The notes beneath the pieces were generated by a model, which was not told the DNA's origin, searched no databases, and saw nothing but the letters and a program-made list of their open reading frames with translations. From the IMG/VR virus record IMGVR_UViG_2693429623_000009: DNA of 15,670 nucleotides; one strand, written 5' to 3'. The position numbers and the translations under genes were made by a program. This DNA comes from a virus (taxonomy: Duplodnaviria > Heunggongvirae > Uroviricota > Caudoviricetes). Of the stretch, positions 1,099 to 15,476 are shown piece after piece; position 1 is the first letter of the stretch, and each line of letters starts with the position of its first letter.

Positions 1099-1851
1099 AT
1101 GGCAACACCAAATCCCCTGGAGCCGGTAAAAGGTGCCGGTACCACTCTGTGGGTTTACAACGGCAAGGCTGATGCTTATGCAAACCCGTTGTCAGACGAT
1201 GACTGGCAGCGACTGGCTAAGGTGAAGGATCTGACGCCGGGCGAGATGACGGCTGAATCCTATGATGATAACTACCTGGATGATGAAGACGCGGACTGGA
1301 GCGCGACCGGGCAGGGGCAGAAATCTGCAGGTGATACCAGTTTTACGCTGGCCTGGAAACCGGGAGAGGAAGGCCAGAAAGGGCTTATAGGCTGGTTTGA
1401 AAGCGGCGATGTCCGGGCCTATAAAATCCGTTTTCCGAATGGCACGGTGGATGTGTTTCGTGGCTGGGTCAGCAGTATCGGTAAGGCCGTGACGGCGAAA
1501 GAAGTGATCACCCGCACGGTGAAAGTCACTAACGTGGGTAAACCTTCTGTAGCGGAAGAACGCAGCAAAATTACGCCGGTCAGTGCGATTAAGGTGACGC
1601 CGACATCCGGTACGGTGGCAAAAGGGAAAACAACCACCCTGACGGTTTCTTTTGAGCCGGAAAGTGCAACCGACAAGACGTTCAGAGCGGTTTCCGCCGA
1701 TCCGTCGAAAGCCACCATTAGTGTGAAAGATATGACAATTACGGTAAACGGCGTGGCGACAGGTAAGGTGCAGATCCCTGTGGTGAGCGGAAATGGTCAG
1801 TTCGCCGCAGTGGCTGAAGTCACCGTTACTGAAGCGGGCGCTGCAGGGTAA
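1099..1851 (+). CDS. V: Major tail tube protein V (lambda gpV homologue) with C-terminal Ig-like domain
   Basis: 250-aa ORF with a GAGG RBS just upstream. The N-terminal region ([27 protein letters not shown]...) is lambda gpV-like, and the C-terminal roughly 90 aa ([22 protein letters not shown]...[17 protein letters not shown]) has the Big_2/Ig-like pattern known for the gpV C-terminus. Confidence 0.9.
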
Positions 1852-2296: not shown

Positions 2297-2736
2297 ACTT
2301 TGCCCTCAGACTGGCGCGTGAGATGGGGAGACCCGACTGGCGCGCCATGCTTGCCGGGATGACATCCACCGAATATGCCGACTGGCGCCGTTTTTACCGC
2401 ACGCATTATTTTCAGGATACCCAGCTGGATATGCATTTTTCCGGGCTGACGTACGCTGTACTCAGCCTGTTTTTTTGCGATCCGGATATGCATCCCTCTG
2501 ATTTCAGCCTGCTTGTCCCCCGGCATGAGGAAGAGCAGGTGGAGAGGCCGGATGAGGACAAAATGCTGATGCAGAAAGCGGCAGGACTTGCCGGAGGCGT
2601 CCGGTTCGGTGGGGACGGAGGGCGCGATATTTTATCGTCTGCGGATGTGGCGGATGTCATGGTGGATGATGCCGCATTAATGATGGCTTCAGCGGGGATT
2701 CCGGGAGGTGTGAGATATGTCCCAGCCGGTTGGTGA
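1865..2736 (+). CDS. T: Tail assembly chaperone G-T fusion, made by programmed -1 ribosomal frameshift at 2272-2278
   Basis: G GGA AAG lies in the G zero frame at 2272-2278. The -1 frame is open from 2278 (VFDGELNFALRLAREMGRPDWRAML...) to the TGA at 2734-2736, and the T-frame protein resembles lambda gpT. The T stop overlaps the H start. Confidence 0.85.
2272..2278 (+). other. Slippery heptamer GGGAAAG for the G to G-T -1 programmed frameshift
   Basis: X XXY YYZ motif positioned so that GGA and AAG are zero-frame codons of G, about 18 nt before the G stop. This is the same heptamer and placement as in lambda. Confidence 0.85.
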
Positions 2737-5700
2737 TCTTGTTATTGACCTGAGTCTGGATGCTGTCCGTTTCGATGAGCAGATGAGCCGGGTAAGGCGT
2801 CATTTTTCAGGTCTGGATACCGACGCCAGAAAAACCGCCAGTGCTGTTGAACAGGGCCTGAGCCGCCAGGCGCTGGCTGCACAAAAAGCCGGGATTTCCG
2901 TCGGGCAGTATAAAGCGGCCATGCGAACCCTGCCCGCACAGTTTACGGATATCGCCACGCAGCTTGCCGGTGGTCAGAATCCCTGGCTGATCCTGCTGCA
3001 ACAGGGCGGTCAGGTGAAGGACTCCTTCGGCGGGATGATCCCCATGTTCAGGGGGCTTGCCGATGCGATCACCCTGCCGATGGTCGGGGTCACCTCGCTG
3101 GCGGTGGCGACAGGTGCACTGGTGTACGCCTGGTACCAGGGAGATTCCACGCTTTCAGCGTTTAATAAAACCCTGGTTCTTTCCGGTAATCAGTCCGGAC
3201 TGACTGCCGATCGTATGCTGACTCTCTCAAGAGCCGGGCAGGCAGCAGGGCTGACGTTTAACCAGGCGAGAGAGTCACTGGCAGCCCTGGTGAATGCCGG
3301 TGTGCGTGGTGGTGAACAGTTTGATGCCATCAACCAGAGTGTCGCGCGTTTTGCGTCTGCATCCGGTGTGGAGGTGGATAAAGTCGCTGAAGCCTTCGGG
3401 AAGCTGACCACTGACCCGACGTCGGGACTGATGGCGATGGCGCGCCAGTTCCGTAACGTGACGGCAGAGCAGATTGCGTATGTTGCACAGCTGCAGCGTT
3501 CCGGAGACGAGGCCGGGGCATTGCAGGCGGCGAACGATATCGCCACGAAAGGCTTTGATGAGCAGACCCGTCGCCTGAAAGAAAACATGGGAACACTGGA
3601 GACCTGGGCGGATAAAACAGGGAAGGCATTCAAATCGATGTGGGATGCCATTCTGGATATCGGTCGTCCGGAATCCTCAGCGGATATGCTCGCCAGTGCG
3701 CAGAAGGCATTTGATGAGGCGGATAAAAAATGGCAGTGGTACCAGAGTCGGAGCCAGCGCCGCGGTAAAACCTCCTCTTTCCGGGCCAACCTTCAGGGCG
3801 CATGGGATGACCGGGAAAATGCCCGTCTGGGTCTGGCAGCGGCAACGCTGCAGTCGGATATGGAAAAAGCCGGTGAACTGGCGGCAAGGGACAGGGCTGA
3901 GCGTGAGTCGTCACAGCTGAAGTATACCGGAGAGGCGCAGAAGGCGTATGAGCGCCTGCTGACGCCACTGGAGAAATATACCGCCCGGCAGGAAGANGCC
4001 ATGCGTATGCTGCCTGCACAGTTCACCGACGTGGCCACGCAGCTTGCAGGGGGGCAGAATCCCTGGCTGATCCTGCTGCAACAGGGTGGTCAGGTTAAGG
4101 ACTCCTTCGGCGGGATGATCCCCATGTTCAGGGGGCTTGCCGGTGCGATCACCCTGCCGATGGTGGGGGCCACCTCGCTGGCGGTGGCGACCGGTGCGCT
4201 GGCGTATGCCTGGTATCAGGGCAACTCAACCCTGTCCGATTTCAACAAAACGCTGGTCCTTTCCGGTAATCAGGCGGGACTGACGGCAGATCGTATGCTG
4301 GTCCTGTCCAGAGCCGGGCAGGCGGCAGGGCTGACGTTTAACCAGACCAGCGAGTCACTCAGTGCACTGGTTAAGGCGGGGGTAAGCGGTGAGGCTCAGA
4401 TTGCGTCCATCAGCCAGAGTGTGGCGCGTTTCTCCTCTGCATCCGGTGTGGAGGTGGACAAGGTCGCTGAAGCCTTCGGGAAGCTGACCACAGACCCGAC
4501 GTCAGGGCTGACAGCGATGGCACGCCAGTTCCATAACGTGACGGCGGAGCAGATTGCGTATGTTGCTCAGTTGCAGCGTTCCGGCGATGAAGCCGGGGCA
4601 TTGCAGGCGGCGAACGAGGCCGCAACGAAAGGGTTTGATGACCAGACCCGCCGCCTGAAAGAGAACATGGGCACGCTGGAGACCTGGGCAGACAGGACAG
4701 CACGGGCATTCAAATCCATGTGGGATTCGGTGCTGGATATTGGTCGCCCGGACACTGCCCAGGGAATGCTGGAGAAAGCAGAAAAGGCTTTTGATGAGGC
4801 GGACAAAAAATGGCAGTGGTATCAGAGCCGGAGCCACCGGCGCGGTAAAACCTCAGCATTTCTTGCCAATCTCCGGGGAGCATGGGAGGACAGAGCGAAT
4901 GCGCAACTTGGGCTTTCAGCCGCCACGTTGCAGGCCGATCTTGAAAAGGCCAGAGAGATGGCAGCAAAGGACTGGGCCGAGTCTGAGGCATCACGGCTGA
5001 AATATACCGAAGAGGCGCAGAAGGCTTACGAACGGCTGCAGACGCCGCTGGAGAAATATACCGCCCGTCAGGAAGAACTGAACAAGGCACTGAAAGACGG
5101 GAAAATCCTGCAGGCGGATTACAACACGCTGATGGCGGCGGCGAAAAAGGATTATGAAGCGACGCTGAAAAAGCCGAAACAGTCCGGCGTGAAGGTGTNC
5201 CCGACGTCGGGGCTGACGGCGATGGCACGCCAGTTCCATAACGTGACGGCGGAGCAGATTGCGTATGTTGCTCAGTTGCAGCGTTCCGGCGATGAAGCCG
5301 GGGCATTGCAGGCGGCGAACGAGGCCGCAACGAAAGGGTTTGATGACCAGACCCGCCGCCTGAAAGAGAACATGGGCACGCTGGAGACCTGGGCAGACAG
5401 GACTGCACGTGCATTCAAATCCATGTGGGATGCGGTGCTGGATATTGGTCGTCCTGATACCGCGCAGGAGATGCTGATTAAGGCAGAGGCTGCGTTTAAG
5501 AAAGCAGACGACATCTGGAATCTGCGCAAGGATGATTATTTCGTTAACGATGAAGCACGGGCGCGTTACTGGGATGATCGTGAAAAAAAACGCCTGGAGC
5601 GGGATGCAGCCCAAAAGAGGGTAGATCAACAGCGTCAACAGGACAAAAATGCGCAGCAGCAGAGCGATACCGAAGCGTCACGGCTGAAATATACCGAAGA

Positions 5701-7398
5701 GGCGCAGAAGGCTTACGAACGGCTGCAGACGCCGCTGGAGAAATATACCGCCCGTCAGGAAGAACTGAACAAGGCACTGAAAGACGGGAAAATCCTGCAG
5801 GCGGATTACAACACGCTGATGGCGGCGGCGAAAAAGGATTATGAAGCGACGCTGAAAAAGCCGAAACAGTCCGGCGTGAAGGTGTATGCGGGCGATCGTC
5901 AGGAAGACAGTGCTCATGCGGCCCTGCTGACGCTTCAGGCAGAACTCCGGACGCTGGAGAAGCATGCCGGAGCAAATGAGAAAATCAGCCAGCAGCGCCG
6001 GGATTTGTGGAAGGCAGAAAGTCAGTTCGCGGTACTGGAGGAGGCGGCNNNNNNNNNNNNNNNNNNNNNNNNNNNNNNNNNNNNNNNNNNNNNNNNNNNN
6101 NNNNNNNNNNNNNNNNNNNNNNNNNCCTGAAAGACGGGAAAATCCTGCAGGCGGATTACAACACGCTGATGGCGTCGGCAAAAAAGGATTATGAGTCGAC
6201 GCAGAAAAAGCCGTCCGGTGTGAAGGTGTCTGCCGGTGAGCGCCAGGAAGACCAGGCGCATGCAGCCCTGCTGGCGCTTGAAACTGAGCTCAGGACGCTG
6301 GAGAAGCACAGCGGTGCGAATGAAAAAATCAGCCAGCAGCGCCGTGATTTATGGAAAGCGGAAAATCAGTATGTGGTCCTGAAAGAGGCCGCCACGAAAC
6401 GGCAGTTATCTGAGCAGGAAAAATCCCTGCTGGCCCATGAGAAAGAAACGCTGGAGTACAAACGCCAGCTGGCTGAGCTGGGCGACAAGATTGAACACCA
6501 GAAACGGCTGAATGAGCTGGCACAGCAGGCGGCGCGGTTTGAACAGCAGCAGAGCGCGAAGCAGGCGGCAATCAGCGCAAAAGCCCGCGGACTCACCGAC
6601 CGTCAGGCGCAGCGGGAGTCGGAAGAGCAGCGCCTTCGTGAGGTGTACGGTGATAATCCGGCTGCGCTGGCGAAGGCCACATCTGCACTGAAGAACACCT
6701 GGTCTGCGGAGGAGCAGCTTCGTGGAAGCTGGATGGCCGGGATGAAGTCCGGCTGGGGCGAGTGGGCGGAAAGTGCGACGGACAGTTTTTCGCAGGTTAA
6801 AAACGCGGCCACGCAGACCTTTGACGGTATTGCACAGAATATGGCAGCGATGCTGATCGGCAGCGAACAGAACTGGCGTGGTTTCACCCGTTCTGTGCTG
6901 TCCATGCTGACAGAGATTTTTCTGAAGCAGGCGATGGTGGGGATAGTCGGGAGTATCGGCAGCGCCATTGGCGGTGCTTTCGGTGGTGGTGCGTCTGCCT
7001 CCACGGGGACGGCCATTCAGGCTGCGGCGGCGAACTTCCATTTCGCGACCGGGGGATTTACGGGGACGGGGGGTAAATATGAACCTGCGGGGATTGTTCA
7101 TCGCGGGGAGTTTGTCTTCACGAAGGAGGCGACCAGCCGGATTGGTGTCGGCAATCTGTACCGCCTGATGCGGGGCTATGCGGAAGGTGGTTATGTCGGC
7201 GGTGCCGGAAGTCCGGCGCAGATGCGGNGCATTAATTTTAATCAGAACAATCACGTGGTGATTCAGAACGACGGCCCCAACGGGCGGGCAGGGCCGCAGC
7301 TGATGAAAGCGGTGTATGAGATGGCCCGCAAGGGGGCACAGGATGAACTCCGGCTGCAGTTGCGTGATGGCGGTATGTTATCAGGGAGCGGTGGATGA
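2717..7398 (+). CDS. H: Tail tape measure protein H (lambda gpH homologue), interrupted as assembled by N-delimited overlapping segments
   Basis: ATG at 2717 with a GGGAGG RBS, overlapping the T stop. The N-terminus (MSQPVGDLVIDLSLDAVRFDEQM...) and C-terminus (...GGKYEPAGIVHRGEFVFTKEATSRIGVGNLYRLMRGYA...RDGGMLSGSGG) are gpH-like, and the stop overlaps the M start (ATGA). Internal structure is not colinear: single N at 3997, 5199 and 7228, and an N run at 6049-6125 that breaks the frame. Total span is about 1560 codons. Confidence 0.85.
2921..5076 (+). repeat. Two tandem, in-frame diverged copies of a 1080-bp tape-measure segment (2921-3996 and 4001-5076) joined at an N (3997)
   Basis: Base-by-base comparison at offset 1080, for example 3421-3780 against 4501-4860, gives roughly 85-90% identity by eye. 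The second copy is nearly identical to lambda gpH as I recall it, and the first is a diverged allele. Confidence 0.8.
5200..6048 (+). repeat. Third overlapping tape-measure segment that re-starts about 705 bp back in the gene after the N at 5199
   Basis: 5200 to about 5450 is near-identical to 4495 to about 4745, and 5678-5885 is identical to 4991-5198. The segment then runs into the N gap. Confidence 0.8.
6049..6125. other. Assembly gap (77 N) inside the tape measure gene
   Basis: Run of n characters. The flanks overlap: 6127-6398 is a diverged copy (about 85% by eye) of 5777-6048. Confidence 0.95.
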
Positions 7399-9176: not shown

Positions 9177-9754
9177 ACACGGCAGCGGAAGCCATTCGCG
9201 CCCTGTCGATGCAGATGCCGGGCTTTCGCCGTCAGATGAACGAAGGCTGGTACCAGATACGTATTGCCGGTTATGACACGGCACCGGAGGCGGTGTACGC
9301 CCGTCTTCACGAACAGCTGGGTGAGGGAACGGTCATCCACATTGTGCCGCGACTGGCCGGGGCCGGAAAGGGTGGACTGCAGATTGTGCTGGGGGCGGCA
9401 GCCATCGTGGGCTCTTTCTTCACTGCCGGGGCATCAATGGCGTTATGGGGTTCAGCCCTGGCAGCCGGTGGTTTTTCTGCCACCACGATGCTGTTTTCAC
9501 TTGGAGCCAGCATGATTCTGGGCGGTGTGGCCCAGATGCTGGCCCCGAAGGCAAAAACACCGGATTACCGCGCAACGGATAACGGCAGACAGAACACGTA
9601 CTTTTCCTCACTGGATAACATGATTGCCCAGGGGAACCCGATGCCGGTGCCTTACGGGGAAATGCTGGTTGGCTCCCGCCGTATATCCCAGGACATCAGC
9701 ACCCGTGATGAAGGCGGGGGCGGAAAGGTCGTGGTTATCGGGCGGCAGGGGTAA
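9074..9754 (+). CDS. I: Tail tip assembly protein I (lambda gpI homologue)
   Basis: 226-aa ORF starting inside the K 3' end, matching the lambda K/I overlap arrangement. It has a Gly/Ala-rich hydrophobic central segment and ends ...GGGGKVVVIGRQG. Confidence 0.82.
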   Translation: MATTNAFSLASPPLARICLHGDLQRFGRRLSLYVNTAAEAIRALSMQMPGFRRQMNEGWYQIRIAGYDTAPEAVYARLHEQLGEGTVIHIVPRLAGAGKGGLQIVLGAAAIVGSFFTAGASMALWGSALAAGGFSATTMLFSLGASMILGGVAQMLAPKAKTPDYRATDNGRQNTYFSSLDNMIAQGNPMPVPYGEMLVGSRRISQDISTRDEGGGGKVVVIGRQG

Positions 9755-9768
9755 AAAGAATAAAAAAA

Positions 9769-9800
9769 TCCCGCAGTGATCGCGGACAGGAACTGCGGGA
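9769..9800 (-). terminator. Candidate intrinsic terminator for a leftward (minus-strand) transcript
   Basis: An 8-bp stem (TCCCGCAG at 9769-9776 pairs with CTGCGGGA at 9793-9800) with a 16-nt loop. On the + strand it is preceded by A7 at 9762-9768, so on the minus strand the hairpin is followed by a U run. Confidence 0.4.
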
Positions 9801-9967
9801 GAGTTACGAAGATTAAGTGTAAGGAATTATTCTTATATCACGACAAAAAAATTAACGCAGAGAAATTATACGCGCCACAGTCAGTTTGTGAAAATGTGAA
9901 GATATTCAGAATTTTTATGCCATTACCGGTTTTAACCAACAGGATTATCGGTGGGCATGAAAGAAAA

Positions 9968-10000
9968 CCCCGGTATCTGCTGATACCGGGGTTTCTCTTT
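9968..10000. terminator. Perfect 10-bp GC-rich hairpin with a 4-nt loop, flanked by an A-rich 5' side and T-rich 3' side (bidirectional terminator shape)
   Basis: CCCCGGTATC at 9968-9977 pairs with GATACCGGGG at 9982-9991, loop TGCT, followed by TTTCTCTTT and preceded by AAGAAAA. Confidence 0.45.
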
Positions 10001-10097
10001 AGCATGGCAGAAATGTGTTTCATGCTTTTCGGGCGAAGGATATCCGACTTCTGTACGGAATGGCAAGTGGCGGTTAATTTATTCAGGGGAAGGCTGT

Positions 10098-15427
<5,330 letters not shown>

Positions 15428-15449: not shown

Positions 15450-15476
15450 GGCGTCAGGAATGACGCCTTTTTTATT
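15450..15476 (+). terminator. Rho-independent terminator downstream of J
   Basis: GGCGTCA at 15450-15456 pairs with TGACGCC at 15461-15467, loop GGAA, followed by TTTTTTATT. Confidence 0.7.

What the first reader, a model, noticed from the sequence alone, without database searches (positions are those of the whole stretch)
9762..9870. Candidate leftward small transcription unit: minus-strand TATAAT facing the minus-strand terminator
On the minus strand there is a perfect -10 hexamer TATAAT (complement of + 9865-9870) with a weak -35-like TTTTCA (complement of 9889-9894) at 18-bp spacing. About 60-95 nt downstream in the leftward direction lies the hairpin 9769-9800 followed by a U run (complement of A7 at 9762-9768). 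Together these would give a short non-coding RNA of roughly 70-100 nt transcribed antisense to the late operon. The -35 is weak, so this is speculative.
Basis: inference. Interest (0 to 1): 0.45.

Follow-up and report, generated by a model that had tools for sequence, protein, structure and literature searches.

The report
Prophage small RNA gene (PasB family)
The short leftward transcription unit between the phage tail genes I and J is real: it is a divergent, so far unstudied allele of PasB, a known Hfq-dependent regulatory small RNA that lambda-like prophages carry into pathogenic E. coli.

Summary
A promoter plus terminator unit like this arose in 1 of 300 shuffles.

It is the pasB locus. 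The 83-nt PasB of EPEC E2348/69 was validated by RIL-seq and Northern blot and is Hfq-dependent. It maps onto window 9843-9762, and its Northern probe matches 9766-9785. EHEC sRNAs EcOnc22/23/24 very probably belong to the same family.

The window allele shares the promoter (56/61) and terminator. It is only 61% identical in the body upstream of the terminator hairpin. It is at least 99% identical in 633 complete E. coli records. The 2026 PasB survey used a BLAST word size of 28, and the longest shared exact run is 25 nt, so the survey probably missed it. Rfam has no model.

New here: all 42 variants keep TCTGA-N6-TCACA upstream of the -10, with a variable spacer. This looks like a CRP site but is untested.

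Verdict: a new member of a known kind, of modest interest.

The parts
9762..9858 (-). PasB-family sRNA gene, window allele. The primary transcript predicted from the TATAAT promoter is 97 nt. The part homologous to the annotated 83-nt EPEC PasB is 9762-9843.
   Evidence: Alignment with NC_011601 1466261-1466343. The Northern probe of PMC8550237 Table S6 matches 9766-9785 at 20 of 23 bases.
9865..9870 (-). -10 hexamer TATAAT (promoter P1).
   Evidence: It is kept as a -10-like hexamer (TATAAT, AATAAT, GATAAT, TATCAT) in nearly all of 42 variants.
9887..9892 (-). -35-like TTCACA, 16-bp spacer. It is not conserved among divergent alleles.
   Evidence: 11/12 matches. Other alleles have TTCCGG, TTCTGT or TTTTGC at this position.
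9895..9910 (.). Candidate dimeric transcription-factor site: TCTGA-N6-TCACA on the minus strand, TGTGA-AGATAT-TCAGA on the plus strand. It matches 9 of 10 core positions of the CRP consensus. Its centre is at 9902.5.
   Evidence: Both half-sites are invariant in all 42 variants, while the 6-nt spacer takes 5 forms. The pattern with at most 1 mismatch is expected 0.46 times per window. CRP binding is inferred, not shown.
9911..9918 (-). A/T block ATAAAAAT upstream of the factor site. It could act as an UP element.
   Evidence: ATAAAA is invariant in 42 variants. The function is inferred.
9844..9858 (-). Conserved 5' leader GCGUUA followed by a U6-8 run. It also contains an invariant TAnnnT (9849-9854), which could be a second -10 giving the shorter 5' end. 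Alternatively the U run could be a processing site or an Hfq-binding site.
   Evidence: The EPEC-annotated 5' end maps to 9843.
9821..9826 (-). UUCCUU, an anti-Shine-Dalgarno-like motif within the family-conserved AAyUCC.
   Evidence: The pairing role is inferred.
9808..9816 (-). UUAAUCUUC, the most conserved single-stranded stretch, just 5' of the terminator. It is the probable seed.
   Evidence: UUrAUCUU is conserved in the family. Zhu et al. 2026 predicted the PasB seed at this position.
9770..9799 (-). Terminator hairpin: 7-bp stem CCCGCAG/CTGCGGG with a variable loop.
   Evidence: -15.7 kcal/mol. In the 15 aligned variants five of the seven stem pairs never vary and two are each broken in one variant, with no compensating change, so there is no covariation.
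9762..9768 (-). U7 tail: the 3' end and the probable Hfq-binding site.
   Evidence: Same 3' end as EPEC PasB. Longest U tract 7 in RIL-seq Table S5.

Best explanation
Window 9762-9858 (minus strand) is a free-standing small-RNA gene of the PasB family. It behaves as a 'moron': its own promoter plus terminator, inserted between tail genes I and J of a lambda-like prophage.

In a lysogen the late operon is silent. Host sigma-70 RNA polymerase starts at the TATAAT promoter, transcribes leftward, and stops at the hairpin plus U7 that lies 8 nt beyond the I stop codon. The product is an RNA of 82-97 nt: a largely single-stranded body followed by a terminator hairpin and a U tail.

The RNA binds Hfq and pairs in trans with host and accessory-genome mRNAs, mainly in their 5'UTR or coding regions. 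Pairing probably uses the conserved UUAAUCUUC stretch and the anti-Shine-Dalgarno-like UCCUU. The 5' part is allele-specific and probably changes the set of targets.

Transcription is probably controlled by a dimeric factor, most likely cAMP-CRP, bound at TCTGA-N6-TCACA just upstream of or overlapping the -35.

Shown in homologues: expression, size, Hfq dependence, and many RNA partners.

Inferred for this allele: that it is expressed, its seed, its targets, and CRP control.
For: 1. The anatomy is real and far beyond chance.

2. It is the same locus as EPEC PasB. The gene sits in the I-J intergenic region, antisense to the tail genes, with the same 3' end. The promoter region is 56/61 identical. 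The terminator arm and U tail form an exact 25-nt match.

3. PasB in EPEC:
- 83 nt, confirmed by Northern blot.
- Reduced in delta-hfq (log2 fold change -6.8 and -2.4).
- 37 RIL-seq partners, 30 of them CDS or 5'UTR.
- It is the second RNA in 99-100% of its chimeras, which is typical of an sRNA.
- The flanking tail genes are silent.

4. EHEC Sakai EcOnc22/23/24 (about 85 nt, destabilised in delta-hfq) lie in the I-J intergenic regions of prophages Sp15, Sp14 and Sp11, on the antisense strand. After calibrating the old-to-new genome coordinates with AgvB and AsxR (shift of about +137 to +142), they fall on the PasB-like RNA.

5. Forty-two distinct variants keep the factor-site half-sites, a -10-like hexamer, the leader, the seed, the stem and the U7, while the body diverges.

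6. Both ORFs of at least 90 aa that run through the region give no Pfam hit, and single-base length changes in the U run argue against coding.

7. CRP idea:
- The site matches 9 of 10 core consensus positions.
- The half-sites are invariant and the spacer is variable.
- The distance to the -10 is 24 bp in the alleles checked by hand (window, Sakai Sp15, L131) and 25 bp in L046.
- PasB gave 7 times more chimeric fragments in overnight LB than in DMEM. CRP-repressed Spf (Spot 42) behaves the opposite way.
Against: - No transcript data exist for this allele. Identity to the studied allele is only 72% over the RNA and 61% in the body.
- The 5' end is ambiguous. The EPEC-annotated end lies 21 nt downstream of the TATAAT, not the usual 7 or so.
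- The terminator stem shows no compensating changes, so comparative data give no covariation support.
- The CRP-like site is centred about 44.5 bp from the P1 start, or about 59.5 bp from the shorter 5' end. Neither is a canonical class II (-41.5) or class I (-61.5) position.
- Higher expression in stationary LB could equally reflect growth phase.
- No target motif was found for PasB in the EPEC study: three of the five Pas sRNAs showed a target motif and the ones listed are PasA, PasD1 and PasD2.
Confidence: 0.85

Rival explanations
1. The RNA acts mainly in cis. It is perfectly complementary to the late polycistronic mRNA between I and J. It, or the convergent act of transcribing it, could therefore modulate processing or expression of the tail-tip gene J during lytic growth, rather than regulating host genes.
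For: It is antisense to the late operon by construction. The cassette sits at the same I-J position in all 87 loci where both flanking genes could be anchored, and in the annotated genomes and phages examined. The same intergenic region also carries terminator-like hairpins that face J on the + strand.
Against: In EPEC, PasB has 37 trans partners on Hfq, and it is expressed while the tail genes are silent. The RNA lies more than 240 nt upstream of the J start, so it cannot mask the J ribosome-binding site. The locus is kept intact in a window whose J gene is a pseudogene.
Confidence: 0.12
2. It is a sponge (anti-sRNA) that titrates a core-genome sRNA, like the prophage RNAs AgvB and AsxR, rather than a direct regulator of mRNAs.
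For: Prophage sRNAs with conserved 3' parts and variable 5' ends have been shown to be anti-sRNAs in EHEC. The PasB family shows the same pattern of a conserved 3' part and a variable 5' part.
Against: EPEC Table S5 lists 0 sRNA partners and 30 CDS or 5'UTR partners for PasB. There is no sequence or Rfam similarity to AgvB or AsxR. The genomic position is different: the tail module rather than the PR' moron site.
Confidence: 0.07
3. There is no functional RNA. The match is a chance promoter-like sequence next to a hairpin that merely ends or stabilises the I message.
For: Promoter-like sites as a class are no more frequent in the window than in shuffles (8 found against 6.5 expected). This allele has never been assayed.
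Against: The combined promoter plus terminator unit occurred in 1 of 300 shuffles. The hairpin has no U run on the + strand. The elements are conserved across 42 variants whose bodies diverge. The homologues are expressed.
Confidence: 0.03

Closest known systems
PasB sRNA of EPEC O127:H6 E2348/69 (Pearl Mizrahi et al. 2021, PMC8550237; distribution in Zhu, Shabalina & Storz 2026, bioRxiv 10.64898/2026.05.13.724894)
   Same: - Same position (I-J intergenic region of a lambdoid prophage) and same strand.
- Same 3' end and U7.
- Same terminator stem.
- Promoter region 56/61 identical.
- Shared core UCCUU...UUrAUCUUC.

   Different: - The body is only 61% identical upstream of the terminator, and 72% over the 83 nt.
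- The terminator loop is 5 nt longer.
- The intergenic region is 343 bp against 240 bp, with an extra hairpin module.
- The longest exact run shared with PasB is 25 nt. The 2026 survey used blastn with word size 28 and reports only few-nucleotide PasB variants, so it very probably did not count this allele.
EcOnc22/EcOnc23/EcOnc24 of EHEC O157:H7 Sakai (Tree et al. 2014, PMC4104026, Table S2)
   Same: These are Hfq-crosslinked RNAs of about 85 nt, destabilised in delta-hfq. They lie in the I-J intergenic regions of Sp15, Sp14 and Sp11, antisense to the tail genes. The Sp15 locus aligns with the window unit along its whole length.
   Different: - A third allele group, about 74% identical to the window RNA, with -10 AATAAT and a different -35.
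- The equation with PasB rests on my coordinate calibration, not on a published statement.
- The function is listed as unknown.
Other prophage-borne Hfq sRNAs (AgvB, AsxR, PasA/C/D, STnc100, DicF)
   Same: They are self-contained promoter-to-terminator units carried by lambdoid prophages, expressed in lysogens, and acting through Hfq.
   Different: There is no sequence or Rfam relationship. Those genes sit near PR', the lysis genes or the immunity region, not inside the tail operon.
CyaR, a cAMP-CRP-activated core sRNA (comparison from my own knowledge of the literature)
   Same: It is an Hfq-dependent sRNA whose promoter depends on a CRP site overlapping the -35. That is the architecture proposed here.
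   Different: The sequence is unrelated. CRP control of the PasB promoter is only inferred, and the site spacing is non-canonical.

Membership tests
PasB sRNA family | Encoded between tail genes I and J of a lambdoid prophage, on the strand opposite the tail genes | tested here: met
   Window I ends at 9754 and J starts at 10098. The unit is on the minus strand. The arrangement is the same in E2348/69.
PasB sRNA family | Sequence homology to the 83-nt E2348/69 PasB | tested here: met
   Alignable end to end. Identity is 72% overall, with an exact 25-nt match across the 3' stem arm and U tail, and 61% in the body. The Northern probe matches at 20 of 23 bases. It is a divergent allele, not a near-identical copy.
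PasB sRNA family | [quoted passage not shown] | tested here: met
   7-bp GC-rich stem, -15.7 kcal/mol, U7.
PasB sRNA family | Conserved single-stranded seed just upstream of the terminator | tested here: met
   UUAAUCUUC at 9808-9816 is unpaired in the consensus fold and conserved in the family.
PasB sRNA family | Expressed as a discrete RNA of about 80-100 nt in the lysogen | not testable with these tools
   Shown only for the EPEC allele and, probably, the EHEC alleles. No transcript data for this allele were found.
PasB sRNA family | Hfq-dependent stability and Hfq-mediated pairing with mRNAs | not testable with these tools
   Shown for EPEC PasB. Inferred here from the U tail and the single-stranded body.
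Any Rfam family | Score at or above a family's gathering threshold | tested here: not met
   There are no hits at gathering thresholds. The best sub-threshold hits score 15-20 bits against thresholds of 39-315.
CRP-activated promoters (class I or II) | CRP site TGTGA-N6-TCACA centred near -41.5 or -61.5 | tested here: inconclusive
   The site matches 9 of 10 core positions and has conserved half-sites. Its centre is about -44.5 from the TATAAT-derived start, or about -59.5 from the shorter 5' end.
Anti-sRNAs AgvB/AsxR | Homology to the conserved 3' region; location at the PR' moron site in a convergent sRNA pair | tested here: not met
   The Rfam AgvB and AsxR models find the genuine Sakai genes but nothing in the window. 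The genomic location is different.

The most novel reading that the evidence does not exclude
The I-J 'PasB cassette' is a single, widespread sRNA platform.

- It is found in about a third of complete E. coli genomes.
- It comprises PasB, EcOnc22-24 and this allele.
- Its promoter (CRP-like site plus -10) and its terminator are held constant.
- The 5' body is exchanged between alleles by recombination, which gives different lineages different target sets under the same catabolite or stationary-phase control.

The window carries the major allele of human extraintestinal isolates. Neither the EPEC nor the EHEC studies nor the 2026 survey examined it.
Probability: 0.35. Interest if true: 0.5.

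Novelty: new member of a known kind. Interest (0 to 1): 0.35.

Why it matters
PasB is one of the most interaction-rich accessory sRNAs in EPEC, and its function is still unknown. This work adds four things:

1. The same cassette exists as several strongly diverged alleles.
2. The allele in this window is at least 99% identical in 633 complete E. coli records, many from human clinical isolates, and has never been studied.
3. The EHEC RNAs EcOnc22-24 are very probably the same family. That links three separate data sets.
4. A concrete and cheap-to-test regulatory hypothesis now exists: a CRP-like site with invariant half-sites.

The finding also illustrates that a word-28 BLAST survey under-counts sRNA families whose seed regions evolve fast.

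It does not reveal a new kind of element.

Tried and rejected
- **Rfam, whole window at gathering thresholds and the region at E up to 10.** Only sub-threshold matches driven by terminator shape.
- **AgvB/AsxR anti-sRNAs.** My first recollection was that they sit in tail regions. The paper places them at the PR' moron site, and the Rfam models do not match the window.
- **sRNA-17 of NMEC RS218 and C271 of UPEC UTI89.** I considered these as possible earlier names for this allele. Their published primers and probes are absent from the window.
- **Protein coding.** Both ORFs of at least 90 aa that run through the region (94 aa on the minus strand, 113 aa on the plus strand) give no Pfam hit. Variants differ by 1-2 nt indels.
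- **Secondary structure and covariation.** RNAalifold finds only the terminator stem, which shows no compensating changes, so it is uninformative.
- **Scan of the species-representative genome collection (genome contigs, GTDB) with a gapped terminator pattern.** The pattern was too loose. Of 44 hits, only the two E. albertii contigs and two tiny, probably contaminant contigs are genuine.
- **A divergent + strand promoter sharing the CRP-like site.** No acceptable -10 lies at a workable distance, by inspection and in the scan.
- **A second minus-strand unit.** TTGCCA-18-TATCCT at 10066-10037 would lead into the hairpin at 9968-9991. The promoter is weak (9/12) and there is no comparative signal, because the module is nearly invariant. 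Left as a note.
- **A full list of PasB RIL-seq targets.** Not extracted, because the supplementary table is very large and look-ups were capped.

Full report
**1. What is in the sequence**

The window is the tail module of a lambda-like prophage. On the + strand the genes run V, G, T, H, M, L, K, I and then J, followed by a Lom-like gene. The closest annotated relative confirms this order. Gene I ends at 9754 and J starts at 10098, which leaves a 343-bp intergenic region.

| Element | Window coordinates (minus strand) | Source |
|---|---|---|
| -10 TATAAT | 9865-9870 | |
| Better -35, TTCACA, 16-bp spacer | 9887-9892 | |
| Terminator stem CCCGCAG/CTGCGGG | 9793-9799 / 9770-9776 | |
| U7 tail | 9762-9768 | |

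- With TTCACA, the promoter scores 11/12 and is the best sigma-70-type match in the entire window.
- The hairpin folds at -15.7 kcal/mol.
- On the + strand the hairpin has no U run, so it terminates leftward only.
- Promoter-like sites as a class are not enriched in the window (8 found, 6.5 expected).
- A promoter followed 50-150 nt later by such a terminator arose in only 1 of 300 dinucleotide shuffles. It arose in none at 11/12 or better.

**2. What it is**

Rfam gives nothing. The intergenic region is 100% identical in many complete E. coli genomes, where no gene is annotated in it.

The literature search led to the Pas sRNAs of EPEC E2348/69. Table S6 of Pearl Mizrahi et al. (PMC8550237) places PasB at NC_011601 1466343..1466261 on the minus strand. 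It is 83 nt long, lies between E2348C_1436 and E2348C_1437, and was detected with the probe AATCCCGCAGTGATCGCGGAGCT.

- Those two genes are tail genes I and J.
- The probe matches window 9766-9785.
- The alignment maps PasB onto window 9843..9762, with the same 3' end.

In EPEC, PasB was confirmed by Northern blot, and the evidence that it is an independent, Hfq-dependent sRNA is as follows:

- Its abundance is baseMean 482 and 1082, while the flanking tail genes read 5 and 15.
- It falls by log2 6.8 and 2.4 in a delta-hfq strain.
- It has 37 distinct RIL-seq partners, 30 of them CDS or 5'UTR.
- It is the second RNA in 99-100% of its chimeras, which is the signature of an sRNA.

**3. Link to EHEC (inferred from coordinates)**

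Tree et al. 2014 list three homologous RNAs in Sakai prophages Sp15, Sp14 and Sp11: EcOnc22, 23 and 24. EcOnc22 runs at about 85 nt on a Northern blot and is destabilised in delta-hfq.

- In NC_002695.2 all three peaks fall in I-J intergenic regions, on the strand antisense to the tail genes. Their offset from the J start is constant.
- The paper used an older genome version. I calibrated the coordinate shift with Rfam hits to AgvB and AsxR. It is about +137 to +142.
- Applying the shift puts EcOnc22 on the PasB-like RNA of Sp15. That RNA has -10 AATAAT at 2902824-2902829 and a U run ending at 2902926.
- The RNA predicted from that promoter is 85-91 nt, which fits the Northern result.
- A review lists these RNAs as having unknown function.

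The residual uncertainty is that the shift was measured at 1.27 and 1.94 Mb, not at 2.2-2.9 Mb.

**4. The family and where this allele stands**

I collected loci from three sources: IMG/VR, using the terminator pattern (120 loci); Sakai; and seven more distant hits from E. coli genomes and phage records. Together they give 42 distinct versions of the unit.

Conserved in all or nearly all versions:

- ATAAAA-n-TTCTGA-N6-TCACATT upstream of the promoter.
- A -10-like hexamer.
- The leader CTGCGTTA followed by a U6-8 run.
- AAyTCC and TTrATCTTC in the body.
- The stem CCCGCAG/CTGCGGG and the U7 tail.

The sequence between the U-run leader and the seed, and the terminator loop, differ strongly between allele groups.

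Compared with E2348/69 PasB, the window allele is:

- 72% identical over the 83 nt.
- 61% identical upstream of the terminator.
- 56/61 identical in the promoter region.
- The longest shared exact run is 25 nt.

Zhu et al. 2026 searched bacterial genomes with blastn at word size 28. Their relaxed search excluded Escherichia and Shigella. They describe PasB variants that differ by only a few nucleotides. Their PasB-2 (position 27, C to A) corresponds to one allele group in my set. The window allele was therefore very probably not counted.

The allele is common:

- 633 complete E. coli records match the 176-bp unit at 99% or better.
- 1848 of 5426 genomes have some version of the locus.

The same J-proximal flank occurs with different RNA bodies. 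This indicates recombination inside the cassette.

Outside E. coli, the species-representative genomes (genome contigs, GTDB) gave genuine hits only in E. albertii. Two very small contigs in unrelated assemblies also matched and look like contamination.

**5. How it most likely works**

The consensus fold has one helix, the terminator. The rest of the RNA is single-stranded. That is the usual layout of an Hfq-binding, trans-acting sRNA.

- The conserved UUAAUCUUC (9808-9816) lies where Zhu et al. predicted the seed.
- UUCCUU (9821-9826) is complementary to a Shine-Dalgarno sequence. This fits the predominance of 5'UTR and CDS partners in EPEC.

These roles are inferred.

**6. The 5' end is unresolved**

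- The TATAAT predicts a start at G9858 and an RNA of 97 nt.
- The EPEC annotation corresponds to about 9843, giving 82-83 nt.
- A TAnnnT motif (9849-9854) is invariant in all alleles and sits at the right distance to act as a second -10 for the shorter end. The U run could also be a processing site.
- The EHEC Northern size (about 85 nt) fits the upstream start better. The EPEC size fits the downstream one.

**7. A candidate regulatory site**

The block TCTGA-ATATCT-TCACA (9895-9910) matches the CRP consensus TGTGA-N6-TCACA at 9 of 10 core positions.

- The half-sites never vary in 42 variants, while the spacer takes five forms.
- The distance to the -10 is 24 bp in the alleles I checked by hand (window, Sakai Sp15, L131) and 25 bp in L046, although the intervening sequence, including the nominal -35, diverges.
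- Such a match is expected 0.46 times per window.
- PasB is higher in overnight static LB than in exponential DMEM: 1820 against 258 chimeric fragments. CRP-repressed Spf (Spot 42) behaves the opposite way: 387 against 7925.

Against the idea:

- The centre lies about 44.5 bp from the P1 start, or about 59.5 bp from the shorter 5' end. Neither is a canonical activation position.
- The two growth conditions differ in much more than glucose.

Neither paper discusses the promoter. I rate CRP control at roughly even odds.

**8. Rivals**

- A purely cis-antisense role on the late mRNA is not excluded as an additional function. It does not explain the trans partners. It also does not explain why the unit is kept in a window whose J gene is broken.
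- A sponge role is unlikely, because EPEC PasB has no sRNA partners.
- Chance is excluded by the shuffles and by conservation.
- Coding is unsupported.

**9. Verdict**

The finding is correct and its interpretation is supported. The element belongs to a known, experimentally validated sRNA family. The window carries a divergent, abundant and unstudied allele of that family. The additions made here are the allele structure of the family, the probable identity of EcOnc22-24 with PasB, and the candidate CRP site.

Noticed in passing
window 9968-9991 (context 9955-10005): A very stable hairpin, CCCCGGTATC-loop-GATACCGGGG (about -25 kcal/mol), lies between the PasB promoter and J. U-rich runs follow it on both strands, so it looks like a bidirectional terminator. 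It belongs to a module of about 100 bp present only in 'long' (343-bp) intergenic regions. One IMG/VR variant (L051) has a 47-bp deletion that removes it. 'Short' (240-bp) regions in E2348/69 and Sakai carry a different hairpin at the same place (CAGGCACC..GGTGCCTG followed by TTGTTTTTG), which terminates on the + strand only. Why J should be preceded by + strand terminators is unexplained.
   Followed up: partly
window 10037-10066 (minus strand) to 9960: A weak promoter-like site, TTGCCA-18-TATCCT (9/12), faces the 9968-9991 hairpin. It could give a second minus-strand RNA of about 70 nt with a 5' GCAUG...CAUGC hairpin. The module is almost invariant among loci, so conservation says nothing.
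   Followed up: partly
window 10098-14591: Tail-tip gene J is disrupted. There is a TGG-to-TGA change at codon 68 (10299-10301), many later stops, and a 1164-bp direct duplication at 99.9% identity (10997-12160 = 12729-13892). No complete E. coli genome shows this arrangement; the best matches are 92-96% identical and about 1.8 kb shorter. It is either a decaying prophage or an assembly artefact.
   Followed up: partly
window 2717-7398: The tape-measure gene is expanded by internal direct repeats: 2918-3996 against 3998-5076 at 83%, and 4985-5198 against 5672-5885 at 99%, among others. It is split into two overlapping ORFs (2717-6130 and 6007-7398). The relative in strain SK1144 has a single 2562-bp gene.
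   Followed up: no
L130 (E. coli JNE170426, NZ_AP027217 1162768-1163720): The I-J intergenic region is 471 bp and holds two tandem PasB-like units of different allele types. Each has its own factor site, -10 and terminator.
   Followed up: no
L177 (E. albertii NBRC 107761, NZ_BBMY01000216, 1827-1871 and upstream): A PasB-like body and terminator lack the conserved promoter block, which is replaced by unrelated sequence. It may be a promoterless remnant.
   Followed up: no
L147 (Parendozoicomonas haliclonae, 460-bp contig) and L158 (Streptomyces flavalbus, 3.4-kb contig): Complete PasB-type units, including the E. coli-type promoter block, occur on tiny contigs of unrelated organisms. Contamination of those assemblies with E. 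coli or phage DNA is the most likely cause.
   Followed up: no
window 1722-1737 and 2709-2724: Two further one-mismatch matches to TGTGA-N6-TCACA lie inside tail genes. Three matches in the window against 0.46 expected is unusual, but these two were not examined for conservation.
   Followed up: no
window 15450-15467: A GC-rich hairpin, GGCGTCAGGAATGACGCC, is followed by T runs on the + strand (TTTTTTATTG), downstream of the Lom-like ORF. It is the likely terminator of that moron.
   Followed up: no
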